Origin: Eledone cirrhosa
Taxonomy: Eukaryota
Assembly (NCBI GenBank): GCA_964016885.1
Contig: CAXHJY010000110.1
Coordinates: 1-64,000 of the forward strand
Length of the DNA stretch: 64,000 nt
Direction: 5' to 3'
Part shown: positions 1 through 35,408 of the stretch, piece by piece
How positions within the stretch are numbered: position 1 is the stretch's first letter
How the letters are laid out: the number at the start of each line of letters is the position of its first letter
Notes under the pieces: generated by a model
The model's input: the letters and a program-made list of their open reading frames with translations, nothing else
What the model was told of the DNA's origin: nothing
Database searches by the model: none
Translations under genes and position numbers: made by a program

Positions 1-37
1 CATGGTAAATAACTGAGAGAGATACAATAGGATTAGA
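1..37 (-). mobile_element. 5' tip of a family A RTE LINE running off the left edge of the window
   Basis: Bases 1-14 (catggtaaataact) are the exact reverse complement of agttatttaccatg, the first bases of the near-full-length family A copy at 55511. The segment abuts (TA)n. Confidence 0.6.
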
Positions 38-172
38 ATATATATATATATATATATATATTATATATATATATTATATATATATATTATATATATATAT
101 ATATATATATTATATATATATATATATTATATATATATATATATATATATATATATATATTATATATATATA

Positions 173-571
173 TTACCCAACTACACCTCTCAAAGTCAAT
201 GACACACGACCGTGACTTCTGGCGTCACGCAGTAATACAGGGTACCCGACCTCCCATGGGTACATGCTGAAGCATATAAACAATATGCCCCCCCCCCCCC
301 ACCGCAAGGTGGTCGTGGAGGTGCCACGGCAAAAAAGCACCCAGCCCACACTGTAGAGTGGACGTGTAGGCGCCACGAAAAAGCACCCAGCACTCACTGT
401 AAATGAGGTTGGTGTTAGGAAGGGCATCCAGCTGTAGAAATCAAGCCAGATCAGTTCCTGTATGAGCAAGGCATGATCAGCCGACCAGACACTGCCCACA
501 ACAGGACAACCCGTCTAACCCATGCTAGCGTGGAAGAACGGACGTAAAACGGTGATGATGATGATGATGAT
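173..571 (+). mobile_element. RTE LINE family A, 3' terminal fragment
   Basis: Near-identical to 59182-59571 (ORF end, 3' UTR, (GAT)n tail); flanked by (TA)n on both sides. Confidence 0.95.
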
Positions 572-1553
572 ATTATATATATATATATATATATTATATA
601 TATATATATTATATATATATATATTATATATATATATATATATATATTATATATATATATATATATATATATATATAATATATATATATATATATATATA
701 TATAATGTATATATATATATAATATATAATATATATATATATATATATATATATATATATATAATATATATATATATATATAATATATATATATATATAT
801 AATATATATATATATATATATATATATATATATATATATATATATAATATATATATATATATATAATATATATATATATATATATATATATATATATATA
901 TTATATATATTATATGTATATATATATATATTATATATATATTATATATATATATATATATATATATATATTATATATATATATATATTATATATATATA
1001 TATATATATATATATATTATATATATATATATATATTATATATACATATATTATATATATATATATTATATATTATATATATATATATACATATATATTA
1101 TATATATATATATATATTATATATATATATATACATATATATTATATATATATATATATATTATATATATATATATATATACATATATATTATATATATA
1201 TATATATATTATATATATATATATACATATATATTATATATATATATATATTATATATTATATATACATATATATTATATATATATATATATATATATTA
1301 TATATATATATTATATATATATATATATATATATTATATATATATATTATATATATATATATATATATATATTATATATATATATTATATATATATATAT
1401 ATATATATATATATTATATATATATATTATATATATATATATATATATATATATATATATATATATTATATATATATATTATATATATATATATATATAT
1501 ATATATATATATATATATATTATATATATATATTATATATATATATATATTAT
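572..1553. repeat. Interrupted (TA)n microsatellite (TATTA variants)
   Basis: Direct inspection. Confidence 0.97.
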
Positions 1554-30416: not shown

Positions 30417-30450
30417 ATATATATATAATATATATAATATATATAATAAT

Positions 30451-33400
30451 ATCATCATCATCATTTTTACGTCCGCTTTTCCCTGCTTGCAAGGGTGGGA
30501 TGGGTCTTATTCAGCACAGCATCTCTCCACTCGTCACGGTCCCTCGTCATCTCCACCGTGAGCTTCAATGATCTGAGGTCTGTTATCACCACCTCCGCCA
30601 TGTTTTTCGTGGTCTACCTCTACCACGTCTTCCTTCAACTGGCAATTCCTGGCACTTCTTCACCCATCGGTCATCCTCCATGCGCATCACATGTCCATAC
30701 CACCTCAGTCTCCTCTCCCGTACACTACATTCTATCCCTCTCAGACACAGTTTCTCTCTCAACACATTTATGCTGGGTCGTTCACGCACATTTACACTGC
30801 ACATCCAACGGAGCATGCTTGCCTCATTTCTCTCCAGCCGTCGCATATCCTCTGCAGTTGCTGCCCATGTCTCACTACCATGCAGCATCGCGCTCCTCAC
30901 ACAGGCATCATACAACCGGCCTTTCGTACGCAGGGAGAAACCCTTCTTCACAACAGAGGAAGCAGCTCCTAAACTTCTTCCAACCCGTCCTTATTCTAGA
31001 TACTATCGCCTCGGAACACCCTCCTCCCATGGTAATCTGATCTCCTAGGTACCGGAAGCTATCCACCACTTCTATAGCGCCCTCTTGCATTTGAAAAATG
31101 TGTCTATCAGTGCGACTTCTACTGTCTAATTTCCCTGTACATCTACAGCATACATATTTCTCCCTACCTGTTAGTTTGCCTGCTATCCCGCTACATCTTT
31201 TGTGTACCCAGGATCTGCATTGTGTGCATTTTATAGAATTTATGCCAGTTCCTTTTCTGCATATCGAACATGGCCATTTCCCTGACGGAATCAGGGTTTT
31301 GTCCTCTTTTCTACTCATCAACACTTTTGTCTTAGCTAGATTCACTCTCAGTCCTCTTGCTTCCAACTGCTGTTTCCATAGTCAGAATTTATTCTCTAGC
31401 TCCTCTACTGATTCTGCTATAAGAACCAGATCGTCAGCGTAGAGAAGTTCCCATGGACAGCCAGTCTTAAACTCCTCTGTTATGGCTTGGAGGACTATAA
31501 TGAACAAGAGCGGGCTGAGGACTGAACCCTGATGTACTCCTACTTGTATCTGGAATTCCTCACTAAACTCCATTCCTACCCTGACTTTACTGAGAGTACC
31601 TCTGTACAAAGGTTGCACTGTCCTCACAAGCCATTCCTCAACACCTAGCTTCCTTAGGGACCACCAGATGACAGATCGGGGTACCTTATCAAAGGCCTTC
31701 TCTAGGTCAACAAAGGCTAAGTATAGTGGCTTATTCTTCTCTAAGAACCTCTCTTGCAATTGTCTCACCAAGAAGAGGGCATCTATTGTACTCTTCCCAG
31801 GCACAAAACCAAACTGCATCTCATCTAGTTTGACCCTTTCTCTAATTAGTTGTGCTAAAATCCTTTCTGCCACTTTCATAACCTGATCTATCAGTTTTAT
31901 ACCCCTATAATTGCTCCTCTCCAAAGCATCCCATTTACCTTTGTAGCAATTTATGAGAATACTGCTGCACCAGTCTTTGGGTATGACACCACCATATATA
32001 GTCTGATTGATGATGCGTGCAACCAGTTTAGTGCCTACGTCCCCTGATGCCTTCAGCATCTCAGCAACAATTCCCGATGGTCCGGCAGCCTTACCATTTT
32101 TCATTTCCCTAATCGCCTCTTGGACCCTATATTCGTCAATCTCAATAGCTGGTCCCTCTGTCGGATCCACCAAAGGTAATTTCTCTCTCTCCCATTCGTT
32201 CTCCACATTCATCAGTCTCTCATAATGACATTTCCAGGCCTCCTTTTTCTGATCATTCGTGACATTAAGTACACCGGCATCATCCCGGACACATTTATCT
32301 CCAACAACATCCTGATTTGCATTGACACACTGCCTTGCAATGTGGAACACCGCACGCCTCTGATCTTCCCGTCGCAGAACATTGGCAAACCTCCTACTCT
32401 CTGCCTCCCTGCGTGCTAAGTACACCTGACGTCTAGCTTCTCTCTTAGTGGCTGTACATTCTTCCCTACTCCCACCCTTTTTCCAAGCCTTCCATGCTAG
32501 TCTTTTGTCTCTAATAGCCTTATCTACTGTGCTGTTCCACCACCAGGTCACTCTCTGTCTGGTTGGAGCTCTGCTCCAGCCACAAGTTTCATCAGTAGCC
32601 TGCAGCAAGTTGTCACGTAGGAAATTCCAGTTATTATCTATGTCATACGTCTCTAAATCGTCTTCTTTTTCGTCATATACATCTTGAAAGGCTTTCCTAA
32701 ATTTGTATTTTAGTGAAAGGTCTTTTAGCTTCCAGACCTTTCTCCACACCTTCCTATATGTCTCATTCCATCTCTTGCTTACTGAGATATCACTAACAAC
32801 TAACCTATGCTGTGGGGTACATTCTTCCCCAGGGTATGCCTTGGTATTAGACACTATCTGCCTGTCCCGCTGCCTAACTAGCAGGAAGTCAATCTGGCTT
32901 ATGTGCTCACCAGATTTGTAGGTTATTAGGTGATTGGCAGGTTTCTGGAAGTTTGTGTTGCAAATAGTCAATGTACCCGCATCACAAAATTCAAGAAGTC
33001 TCACTCCTTCCTCATTTCTTGAACCGTAACCGTTCCCACCATATATCCCAGTGTAACCATCCTGGAGCTGTCCAACATGACCATTGAAGTCTCCTGCTAG
33101 CATAACAATGTCTCCGTCCTCTGTCATTGCGGTTGTTTGCAAAAGTTGCTCATAAAAGCAGTCTTTCTCATCTTTGCCTAGGCCTGCTTGGGGAGCATAG
33201 GCCGAGATGATTGTCAGTAGTCTCCTACCTACAACTAATCTAAGCTTAATTATTCGATTACTAACTCGAACTACCTCTATTGTCTTATTGATCCATTTCT
33301 CAGCCAGGAAAATGCCTACTCCCCCTAGCCCATCATCCTTACCTACCCAGAATAGCTTATAGCTAAGACGCTTGCCTACGAGTAGTCTCGCAGAGGCACC

Positions 33401-34435
33401 TCTCCATCTCACCTCTTGCACGCAGCACACATCCACCTGCCTTCTCTCCAGCATCTCCGCTATTTCAGCAGATCTACCTCTGAGAGTGCCAACATTAAGT
33501 GTTGCAACTCTGAGATGCGATGTCTTCATATTTTGTTGTTGTTCCTATTTGTTGCTGTGCTGATAAGAGTTTTGGCATTGATACACTGGTTGGATGCCCT
33601 TCCTAACACCAGCACCACTTTACAGCATGGACTGGGTGCTTTTATTTGTGCCACCAGCACTAGAGAGGATGTCTTACTAGACTCAAGGGCCCTCTCTACC
33701 CCTCCATTTTACAGCATGGTCATAAAAAAAAAAAAATTTTCAAAAAACTTATTGACACGACGCACACACAAACACTCACACACCAACACTCATGCATACA
33801 AACCACAACCACACACACGCCACTCACATACCAACACTCATTCATGCATACAATCACACACACCACTCACAAACACACATATATATACATATATTACCGA
33901 CAGTACTGATACAAATACAAAATCAAAATCAAAATCATCAAAATCAATATTATGTCAACTGTTGACCTTTCCCAGTCCAGTTCAGCTTGTATATAATAAC
34001 AATAATAATAATTGTTTGCTTTACGCTGGTAGTGGCGTTGGTGGTGGTGAATCGTGCCAGTGTGGTGGTGGTGGATGGTGTCAGTGTGGCGGATGGTGTC
34101 AGTGTAGTGGTGGTGGATGGTCAGTGATGGTGGTGGCAGTTGTTGGTGCTGTAGTTGTTGTCGTTGTTGTCGCTGTTGTTGTTCTTCTTCATTTCACTGC
34201 TGCTGTTGCTGCAGACAATGGTGTTGATGCTGTTATTGCTGTCGCATATATACATACACACACATTCAACACAGACAATGGTGTTGTTGCCGTTGTTGTT
34301 GTTGGTGTTGCTGCTGTTGTTGTTGTAGTTGTTGCTGTGTTGAAATCTGGTCGCATCCATACATATAAACACACATATATATATGTATATACACATACAT
34401 ACATCAAAAGAGTCAGCAGTATGTCAACAGGGACA
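30451..34435 (-). mobile_element. RTE LINE family C, probably full length; one stop and one frameshift in the 3' third
   Basis: ORF 31382-33529 (APE + RT to YADD), then 30908-31366 (PHD) and 30586-30951. Very short 3' UTR with (GAT)n. The simple-repeat-rich 33530-34435 is read as 5' UTR; its boundary is inferred from the flanking TA tract. Confidence 0.9.
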
Positions 34436-35408
34436 TATAATATATATAATATATATATATAATATATAATATATATATATAATATATATATATATAATAT
34501 ATATATATAATATATATATATATAATATATATATATAATATATATATATATAATATATATATATAATATATATATATAATATATATATATAATATATATA
34601 TATAATATATATATATAATATATATATATAATATATATATATAATATATATATAATATATATATAATATATATATAATATATATATATAATATATATATA
34701 TAATATATATATATAATATATATATAATATATATATATAATATATATATATAATATATATATATAATATATATATAATATATATATATAATATATATATA
34801 TAATATATATATATAATATATATATATAATATATATATATAATATATATATAACATATATATAATATATATATATAATATATATATAATATATAATATAT
34901 ATATAATATGTAATATATAATATATAATATATATATAATATATATATAATATATAATATATATATAATATATAATATATATATATATATAATATATATAT
35001 ATATAATATATATATAATATATATAATATATAATATATATATATATAATATATATAATATATATATATATATAATATATATATATATATATAATATATAT
35101 ATATAATATATATATATATATATATATATAATATATATAATATATAATATATATATATATATAATATATATAATATATAATATATAATATATATATATAT
35201 ATAATATATATATATAATATATATATATATAATATATAATATATAATATATATATATATAATATATATAATATATATATATATATATATAATATATAATA
35301 TATATATATATAATATATAATATATATATATATAATACATATATATATAATATATATATATATAATACATATATATATAATATATATAATATATATATAT
35401 ATATATAT
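34436..35408. repeat. (TA)n microsatellite with TAA interruptions; right boundary of the first transposon nest
   Basis: Direct inspection. Confidence 0.95.

What the first reader, a model, noticed from the sequence alone, without database searches (positions are those of the whole stretch)
1..35408. A >35-kb nest of several retroelement lineages all inserted in (TA)n
Seen: almost every non-microsatellite segment here (RTE families A, B, C, E, the Penelope-like element, two ribozyme inserts, unclassified inserts) is bounded by TA tracts, up to 1.4 kb long, and none interrupts another element's body. A second nest starts at 52272 and adds BovB-like and CR1/L2 pieces. The 17 kb between is older sequence where young copies again sit at TA tracts. 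Inference: one microsatellite grew by a feedback loop in which insertion splits the TA tract, the halves re-expand and new targets arise. APE-type RTE LINEs are not usually regarded as strictly sequence-specific, so TA fidelity across ~13 copies of A/B/C is notable.
Basis: partly seen in the sequence, partly recalled or inferred. Interest (0 to 1): 0.7.

Follow-up and report, generated by a model that had tools for sequence, protein, structure and literature searches.

The report
Retroelement pile-up inside one TA microsatellite
In this animal genome, about 18 jumping-gene pieces sit one after another inside stretches of TATATA repeat rather than inside each other, and most belong to one lineage of RTE-type LINE retrotransposons that likely prefers TA repeats as a landing site, a preference I found reported for other retroelements but not for this group.

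Summary
The nest is real. In 1-35408, 34 of 36 ends of 18 segments abut TA. The two exceptions join two inverted family-A copies that lost their tails, probably by deletion. No insert sits inside another (about 1e-6 under uniform insertion). Strand-oriented variant patterns run unbroken across consecutive tracts, whatever the insert, so the TA is target DNA; tail-made TA and wholesale mis-joining are disfavoured. A 15-16 bp unit amplified about 13 times into one element's tail indicates tract growth at or after insertion. Corrections: A, B and E are one clade, not separate lineages; the ribozyme inserts look like Penelope-like elements, a group with known TA preference; local duplication and deletion also shaped the nest. 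Young (GAT)n tails are TA-flanked in 12 of 13 cases, old relics 0 of 5, distant relatives 0 of 42. The likely mechanism is nicking at TpA, known for RTEs, sharpened into TA-array targeting. Genome-wide specificity and long-read support could not be tested. Sequence look-ups of earlier scan notes found no look-alike; one note describes sea-urchin repeats in a TA tract.

The parts
1..37 (-). Probable 5' end of a further family-B copy that runs off the left edge
   Evidence: 1-14 is the reverse complement of 55511-55524 (read)
38..1553 (.). TA block 1 (ATTA variant): tracts 38-173 and 571-1553
   Evidence: cosine 0.96
174..570 (+). B1: 5'-truncated family-B RTE with (GAT)n tail
   Evidence: 99% to B5; junctions
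1554..3387 (-). B2: 5'-truncated family-B RTE; it lies between TA blocks 1 and 2
3388..18070 (.). TA block 2 (TAAAT variant on the + strand, flipped only at 10749-11000)
3764..6114 (-). Penelope-like element, 5'-truncated: Cys-rich linker, GIY-YIG-like motifs, minimal hammerhead core at 3856
   Evidence: translation; pattern scan; Pfam found nothing
6682..7977 (+). A1: 5'-truncated family-A RTE
8152..9028 (.). Unclassified insert with 287-bp direct terminal repeats; no hammerhead core found
9029..9604 (.). TA tract carrying a 15-16 bp ATCTA-unit ladder (C at 9403 to 9605) that runs into the neighbour's tail
9605..9877 (-). 3' fragment of another RTE-like family with a (TAGA)n tail and a short 5' inverted duplication
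10151..11314 (.). Local direct-plus-inverted duplication of A2's 5' end with its flanking tract (10404-10689 direct, 10688-10748 inverted, tract half 10749-11000 flipped)
11254..15707 (+). A2: near full-length family-A RTE (APE, RT, PHD); ORF broken near its 5' end; 112-bp 3' unit in three copies
16476..17582 (+). A3: 5'-truncated family-A RTE
18071..19301 (.). Hammerhead-bearing insert (core at 19200) with an 82-bp inverted repeat; Penelope-like anatomy
19302..35408 (.). TA block 3 (TAATA variant), including the 1411-bp tract 28768-30178
19636..22423 (+). A4: family-A copy with its 3' part missing
22421..22425 (.). Body-to-body join of A4 and A5, with no TA and short microhomology; inferred deletion between inverted copies
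22424..26062 (-). A5: family-A copy lacking its tail
26111..26914 (.). Hammerhead-bearing insert (cores at 26307 minus and 26814 plus) in 164-bp inverted repeats; Penelope-like anatomy
27287..28767 (+). A6: 5'-truncated family-A RTE
30184..30416 (-). A7: 233-bp 3' fragment of family A
30453..34434 (-). E1: family-E RTE (ORF up to about 33544) plus 0.8 kb of low-complexity DNA of uncertain origin; true 5' junction undetermined
41709..42596 (-). B3, outside the nests: 5' end at (TA)7; tail followed by 74 non-TA bases
48102..48446 (+). C1 (3' fragment, TA after the tail) and E2 (47-bp 3' end between TA runs)
52272..64000 (.). Nest 2: four long tracts with the TACAT variant, holding a CR1/L2-like piece (52318-52513), B4, B5 and a BovB-like RTE
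55512..59571 (+). B5: full-length family-B RTE; single open ORF 56160-59279 (1039 aa) with APE, RT and PHD
60071..62858 (-). BovB-like RTE, 5'-truncated, with C-terminal C2H2-like motifs and a microsatellite-rich 3' UTR

Best explanation
The region is a compound (TA)n array split by about 18 retroelement pieces, most of them copies of one clade of PHD-bearing RTE LINEs (A, B, E, and by its shared 3' end C) that likely target TA arrays by nicking at TpA steps. Shown: the copies have different 5' truncation points, both orientations and (GAT)n tails that run straight into the TA; the TA on both sides carries the variant pattern of the locus, not of the element. Inferred: the APE endonuclease nicks at T/A, the exposed 3' AT pairs with the AU of the RNA's (GAU)n tail, and reverse transcription starts there; each insertion leaves TA on both sides. 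The split tracts likely keep lengthening by slippage of 9-16 bp units (indicated directly at one junction), so target DNA is renewed. Penelope-like elements, a group with published microsatellite bias, use the same sink. Local inverted duplication and deletion add to the structure.
For: 34 of 36 segment ends in TA, and 8 of 8 checked truncation points at tract edges. Body-avoidance P of 1.4e-6, at best 2.5e-4. Mean similarity of adjacent tracts 0.72 against 0.31 with shuffled order (0 of 100000) and 0.45 with random strand flips (p=0.002), 19 tracts. Family B has ATTA flanks in nest 1 and TACAT flanks in nest 2. ATCTA unit: 14 copies next to the (TAGA)n tail against 0-1 in the other 13 nest-1 tracts. 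A, B, E form one clade, SH-aLRT 100, quick tree of 44 proteins. Young tails TA-flanked 12 of 13, old relics 0 of 5 (Fisher p=7e-4), relatives elsewhere 0 of 42. Outside the nests only 1.4% of positions are TA-like, yet 4 of 6 ends of B3, C1 and E2 are TA. Literature: RTE TpA-centred 'Tn-TA' signature and tail-target pairing model (PMC6007223 passages; PMC13295347 sections 11 and 16).
Against: One locus, picked for its look; no genome was held. The read-laying run did not test tail flanks, because the tail region was skipped as repeat and the two raw-read runs laid nothing. One contig of another organism (X9, record 9) joins a truncated B end to the body of the TAGA-tailed RTE, not to TA. B3's tail and C1's 5' end are not in TA. 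Old relics lack TA, which fits decay of tracts as well as recent gain of specificity. Target-site duplications cannot be read in TA (matches of 6-34 bp with 0-3 variant sites). Unrelated CR1/L2-like and BovB-like pieces are also in TA, one copy each, which a host-side cause explains as well. The T-run part of the Tn-TA signature is not evident upstream of A1-A3. The endonuclease hairpin has the same length as in 109 of 120 relatives, and its SG.H motif occurs in 14 of 120, so no unique determinant was found.
Confidence: 0.6

Rival explanations
1. Host-side hot spot: long (TA)n forms hairpins or cruciforms, or is nucleosome-poor, and so is nicked or broken by host enzymes or is simply the most exposed DNA; any retroelement RNA or cDNA is captured there, with no special element specificity.
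For: At least five unrelated kinds of element end in TA: the PHD-RTE clade, Penelope-like inserts, the TAGA-tailed RTE, the BovB-like RTE and the CR1/L2-like piece. An inverted duplication turns inside a tract and a deletion joins inverted copies. Cruciform formation and fragility of (TA)n are recalled, not from a call; search gave nothing useful.
Against: Copies keep intact tails in register with the target and clean 5' truncations, as ordinary target-primed insertion gives. The BovB-like and CR1/L2-like cases are single copies. Repeats in the 17-kb middle region, such as the old relics, are mostly not TA-bounded.
Confidence: 0.22
2. The elements make their own TA: the (GAT)n tail decays or is reiterated into (AT)n, so tracts are products of insertion, not targets.
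For: Tails run GAT-GAT-AT without a break. The ATCTA ladder shows tail letters entering a tract. C1 has TA only on its 3' side. RTE tails seed microsatellites in moths (PMC2887409, abstract).
Against: 5'-truncated ends abut TA in 8 of 8 checked copies. Variant patterns follow the locus and keep their strand across inserts of both orientations. Relatives with (GAT)n-type tails elsewhere have no TA flank.
Confidence: 0.06
3. Assembly artefact: separate TA-flanked repeats were chained through TA tracts, or tract lengths and variants come from base-calling errors.
For: No read or contig spans the tracts in anything I could see (one search was laid on 41640-42700 only). Three abrupt signature changes exist in nest 1: across B2 (cosine 0.01), around 10749-11000 (0.05 and 0.07) and across 18071-19301 (0.32). 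A short fold-back like 10688-11314 can be a chimera (recalled).
Against: Random joining would scramble pattern and strand, but the observed continuity exceeds both nulls (nest 1 alone: p=0.0006 for order, p=0.011 for strand). The pattern flips exactly with the inverted unique arm, so the variants are in the DNA. Copies differ by 1-14% and have distinct ends. Even if joins exist, each element's own TA flanks remain.
Confidence: 0.07
4. Random insertion in a genome very rich in (AT)n, with the window chosen after the fact.
For: A squid genome is over 10% (AT)n (PMC9068888, passage), and this host looks cephalopod-like (inferred, not established).
Against: The body-avoidance test is conditional on the nest and gives 1.4e-6 to 2.5e-4. 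Insertion into dead element bodies should be neutral, so selection does not explain the gap.
Confidence: 0.05

Closest known systems
RTE-clade LINEs with the Tn-TA insertion signature (Bov-B, plant RTEs, Sauria and Au SINEs; PMC6007223, PMC13295347)
   Same: Single ORF with APE and RT, short microsatellite tail, junctions at TpA, proposed role of the tail in cut choice or priming.
   Different: Those elements insert at dispersed single TA sites with a T-run about 10 nt upstream; here nearly all young copies lie in long (TA)n arrays, and a PHD finger lies behind the RT core.
Microsatellite-specific non-LTR elements: Mino (AC)n of the R1 clade (PMC3124438 passage), Togen (TG)n and some HERO families (PMC4640811 passages); Waldo, Kibi, Koshi and Dong (recalled)
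   Same: Many copies of one lineage placed in a simple repeat that acts as a harmless sink.
   Different: Other clades (R1, Tx1, or restriction-like endonuclease) and other repeats. A passage in PMC6007223 names only Tx1 and R1 among APE clades as having site-specific members (the passage was cut off after 'site').
Penelope-like elements, Neptune/Nematis and Naiad types (PMC8557442)
   Same: Three inserts show minimal type I hammerhead cores; two have inverted repeats; one has a Cys-rich linker before GIY-YIG-like motifs. (TA)n is described as a preferred Naiad target and microsatellite bias as a PLE feature.
   Different: Naiads lack hammerheads and have an N-terminal endonuclease, so these are not Naiads; the RT is missing here, so the clade is not fixed. 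This part of the nest is already explained.
RTE-2_OV of Octopus vulgaris (PMC9115989)
   Same: The nest-2 BovB-like piece has RT, C2H2-like fingers and a microsatellite starting at the ORF end, as described for that element.
   Different: No sequence comparison was possible; the passages read say nothing on target sites. Families A/B/E are a different lineage (28% identity to the BovB-like piece).

Membership tests
RTE-clade LINE (A, B, E) | Single ORF with APE endonuclease and RT, no separate ORF1 | tested here: met
   B5 has a 1039-aa ORF with Exo_endo_phos, RVT_1 and PHD; no other ORF of 120 aa or more in its 5' region; weak match to the L1 endonuclease (E 1e-4)
RTE-clade LINE (A, B, E) | Short tandem-repeat 3' tail instead of poly(A) | tested here: met
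   (GAT)n tails on 13 young copies
RTE-clade LINE (A, B, E) | RT phylogeny groups with named RTE references | not tested
   The tree held only unnamed relatives; the clade name rests on anatomy and recalled motifs
RTE-clade LINE (A, B, E) | Tn-TA signature at the start of the target-site duplication | tested here: inconclusive
   Junctions lie at TA, but duplications cannot be delimited inside TA; no T-run upstream of A1-A3
Sequence-specific non-LTR elements (R1/Tx1 type) | Most genomic copies lie in one target motif | not testable with these tools
   No genome held; tail flanks skipped; local count 12 of 13
Sequence-specific non-LTR elements (R1/Tx1 type) | Two-ORF layout of the R1 or Tx1 clade (recalled) | tested here: not met
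   Single ORF. It may work like them but is not a member.
Penelope-like element (canonical, C-terminal endonuclease) | GIY-YIG endonuclease behind a Cys-rich linker | tested here: inconclusive
   Motifs readable in the translation of 3764-6114, but Pfam gave 0 families for both ORF pieces
Penelope-like element (canonical, C-terminal endonuclease) | Hammerhead ribozyme motif in the terminal repeat | tested here: met
   4 minimal type I cores, all in these three inserts, against 0.15 per shuffled window, maximum 1 in 40 shuffles; Rfam found none; cleavage untested
Penelope-like element (canonical, C-terminal endonuclease) | Tandem or inverted pseudo-LTR arrangement | tested here: met
   Inverted repeats of 82 bp and 164 bp in 18071-19301 and 26111-26914; none seen for 3764-6114
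Penelope-like element (canonical, C-terminal endonuclease) | PLE-type reverse transcriptase | not testable with these tools
   The RT core is absent from these truncated pieces

The most novel reading that the evidence does not exclude
A, B, C and E are a (TA)n-specific RTE clade: an APE-type lineage outside R1 and Tx1 that recently turned the general RTE liking for TpA into microsatellite targeting, and whose insertions, with regrowth of the split tracts, help drive the very large (AT)n content and the repeat hot spots of its host's genome.
Probability: 0.4. Interest if true: 0.72.

Novelty: new variant of a known kind. Interest (0 to 1): 0.52.

Why it matters
If it holds genome-wide, it adds the RTE clade to the few APE-type LINE groups with target-specific members, and gives a simple case (related families with and without the preference, one full-length ORF) for asking how specificity arises from a weak TpA bias. 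It would link retrotransposon activity to microsatellite growth, offer a cause for repeat hot spots such as those mapped without explanation in Octopus vulgaris (PMC13282606), and warn that short-read insertion calls for these families will miss most copies because both flanks are unmappable TA. If it does not hold, the locus is still a clean record of a microsatellite acting as an insertion sink.

Tried and rejected
Genome-wide flank count: no genome held. Sequencing runs: 20 of 24 listed runs hold part of family B, 9 hold half its words or more; no RNA holder listed. Laying 4 of those 24 runs on 41640-42700 gave 49307 contigs for X1 and 47 for X9 and no reads for X22 and X23; the tail region was skipped and only 12 loose ends were shown (621 hidden), so it is no test of flanks. 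Viral contigs: no relatives. Cluster look-up for source names could not be made, so the host group stays an inference. Rfam: no ribozyme hit in the whole window or four sub-regions; its miRNA hits are low-complexity noise. A first hammerhead scan printed nothing because of its pattern and a second found 2 cores; one search replaced both. Target-site duplications: unreadable. Endonuclease hairpin as a specificity mark: not unique. Relatives: 64 of 86 loci had sequence downstream of the match and were examined; 0 of 64 had (TA)5 or more within 900 bp; 42 had a tail plus 20 flanking bases, none TA; 3 ended at or near the tail; 19 had no tail called. Short-read contigs break at TA, which biases this count; one locus (L021, 35% identity) starts in TA-rich repeat at its truncation point and ends in its tail. 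Literature: ten searches found no report of (TA)n-targeting RTEs; Repbase reports and most subscription papers are not covered, and no supplements were read. Rejected: A4/A5 as a nested insertion, because A5 lacks the tail that target-primed insertion would leave; tandem duplication as the source of most copies, because ends, orientation and identity differ.

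
Full report
OBSERVATION. The window holds long imperfect TA tracts from 38 to 35408 and again from 52272 to the end; the longest is 1411 bp. TA makes 8060 bp, 22.8%, of 1-35408. Between the tracts lie 18 segments. Of their 36 ends, 34 have TA/AT purity of at least 0.79 over the next 20 bases. For four unclassified stretches this is true by definition. 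For the RTE copies it is a real result: in 8 of 8 truncated copies checked, homology to a full-length copy ends within a few bases of the tract edge. The two exceptions are one junction, 22421-22425, where a plus-strand and a minus-strand family-A copy meet. Both lack the tail and share a few bases at the join, so I read it as a deletion between inverted copies, not a nested insertion. With TA fixed at today's length, the chance that none of 17 inserts lands in an earlier one is 1.4e-6 averaged over orders and 2.5e-4 in the best order. The first 14 bases of the window match the 5' end of family B on the minus strand, so the nest probably extends further left.

WHAT THE INSERTS ARE. B5 (55512-59571) has one open 1039-aa frame with APE endonuclease, RT and a PHD finger. 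A is 75% and E 67-69% identical to B or A in DNA. In a quick tree of 44 proteins A, B and E form one clade with SH-aLRT 100 on a stem of 0.6 (the careful search did not finish, and no named references were in it). So the RTE 'lineages' are subfamilies of one lineage, and their TA fidelity is probably one trait; C is known only from its 3' end. Three inserts carry minimal type I hammerhead cores (4 cores against 0.15 per shuffled window; Rfam found none). Two of them have inverted repeats and one has a Cys-rich linker and GIY-YIG-like motifs (no Pfam hit). This is Penelope-like anatomy. Further single pieces are a (TAGA)n-tailed RTE-like fragment, a CR1/L2-like C-terminus (motifs recalled) and a BovB-like RTE, 28% identical to B. 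The host looks like a cephalopod from its repeat content and from the likeness of the BovB-like piece to the description of RTE-2_OV; this is an inference.

IS THE TA TARGET OR PRODUCT? The tracts carry strand-oriented variants that come in blocks: ATTA at 38-1553, TAAAT at 3388-18070, TAATA at 19302-35408 and TACAT at 52514-64000. Adjacent tracts are far more alike than chance: mean cosine 0.72 against 0.31 with shuffled order (0 of 100000) and 0.45 with random strand flips (p=0.002) over 19 tracts; for nest 1 alone p=0.0006 and p=0.011. The pattern ignores the family and orientation of the insert between, and family B has ATTA flanks in one nest and TACAT flanks in the other. The pattern flips only at 10749-11000, together with an inverted 61-bp copy of A2's 5' end. 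The direct copy of the tract scores above all 56 control windows (442 against a maximum of 387); the flipped copy (380) is within the control range but well above its unflipped score of 314. So the variants are in the DNA, the tracts descend from pre-existing arrays, and wholesale mis-joining is unlikely. The three block changes could still be joins, and no long read was seen.

DID TRACTS REGROW? Tract 9029-9604 holds an ATCTA-bearing unit with a C every 15-16 bases from 9403 up to the first C of the neighbouring tail at 9605. It has 14 such variants; the other 13 nest-1 tracts have 0 or 1. About 200 bp therefore arose at or after that insertion, by DNA slippage or by reiterated priming; the less likely alternative is that the element chose a site already matching its tail. 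This is one junction, so the general feedback loop remains inferred.

HOW SPECIFIC IS THE LINEAGE? A profile of the 3' ends found 13 young tails, 12 followed by TA, and 5 old tailed relics, none followed by TA (Fisher p=7e-4); six weaker rows without a tail were dropped. In the 17-kb middle region only 1.4% of positions are TA-like, yet 4 of 6 ends of B3, C1 and E2 are TA. Distant relatives from other assemblies (35-49% identity over the C-terminal part) end in (GAT)n, (GTT)n, (TG)n or similar tails followed by ordinary DNA: 0 of 42 scorable tails have a TA flank, out of 64 loci examined and 86 fetched. Short-read contigs break at TA, which biases this, and L021 begins in TA-rich repeat at its truncation point. 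Against strict fidelity: B3's tail and C1's 5' end, and one contig in run X9 that joins a truncated B end to the body of the TAGA-tailed family. The genome-wide test could not be run.

MECHANISM. Most likely (0.6), the endonuclease nicks TpA steps, the freed 3' AT pairs with the AU of the (GAU)n tail, and target-primed reverse transcription leaves TA on both sides; tracts then lengthen and stay available. Tails, truncations, flanks and one regrowth event are shown. Nicking preference, pairing and genome-wide reach are inferred. The main rival (0.22) is a host-side hot spot, such as structure-forming or exposed (TA)n, that captures any retroelement; the mix of unrelated elements and the local rearrangements fit it. 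Tail-made TA (0.06), assembly artefact (0.07) and random insertion (0.05) fit poorly.

COMPARISON WITH WHAT IS KNOWN. RTE elements have a published TpA-centred signature and a proposed role of the tail in cut choice or priming (PMC6007223, passages; PMC13295347, abstract and sections 11 and 16); those are dispersed sites, not arrays. (TA)n is a preferred Naiad target and microsatellite bias a known trait of Penelope-like elements (PMC8557442, passages), so that part is explained. Microsatellite-specific non-LTR families are known in other clades (PMC4640811 and PMC3124438, passages). RTE tails seed microsatellites in moths (PMC2887409, abstract). A squid genome is over 10% (AT)n (PMC9068888, passage). 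An Octopus vulgaris annotation lists active RTE and Penelope families and repeat hot spots but, in the two of three parts read, no target preference (PMC13282606); passages of PMC9115989, PMC8967140, PMC12602865 and the preprint 10.64898/2026.07.22.740005 added none. Ten searches found no (TA)n-targeting RTE, but Repbase and most subscription papers lie outside the library, and no supplements were read. Earlier scan notes held no look-alike sequence; one unchecked note describes sea-urchin repeats side by side in a TA tract.

VERDICT. A real, well-structured nest. Microsatellite sinks and TA-seeking Penelope-like elements are known; a TA-array-seeking RTE clade would be a new variant, supported here by one locus only. 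Interest 0.52; the bold reading has probability 0.4 and would deserve about 0.72.

Noticed in passing
window 417-429, 7839, 15338/15450/15562, 33592-33604, 59426; L003:372, L004:33, L056:384, L082:199: A conserved motif around AGGAAGGGCATCC lies in the 3' UTR of A, B and C (one to three tandem units in A) but on the 5' side of the ORF in E, and at the 5' end of the long frame in four distant relatives; 16 matches in the window against 0.03 expected, and matches in 13 of 86 loci. It may be an RNA element that moved from one end to the other.
   Followed up: partly
window 42651-42999: A 349-bp palindrome between TA dinucleotides, MITE-like; its left part is high-copy in run X1.
   Followed up: partly
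window 41635-41708: The 74 bases between B3's tail and the next TA tract hold a degenerate hammerhead-like pattern on the minus strand (read by eye; not hit by the scan); possibly a Penelope-like remnant, which would put B3 at the edge of a TA run.
   Followed up: no
window 43460-43620: An old piece with a B-like 3' UTR motif followed by an E-like tail; possibly a chimera or a SINE.
   Followed up: no
window 49898-51975: A 2-kb GA-rich minisatellite with a 24-bp unit, about 85 copies, with no insert in it.
   Followed up: no
window 8152-9028: About 1.5 units of a 594-bp sequence (287-bp direct repeats, 98.6% alike) between TA tracts; no ORF, Rfam or hammerhead hit.
   Followed up: partly
window 55512-59569: Family B words are held at a share of 0.4 or more by runs coded as nine different organisms, so near-identical copies are shared across species; recent common origin or transfer not examined.
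   Followed up: no
window 11254, 19636, 26062: The three long family-A copies have different first 160-400 bases although their bodies are 89-94% alike, which suggests 5' end switching.
   Followed up: no
L081-L086: Animal-type RTE retrotransposon sequence sits in six contigs filed under bacterial genome bins; probably host contamination.
   Followed up: no
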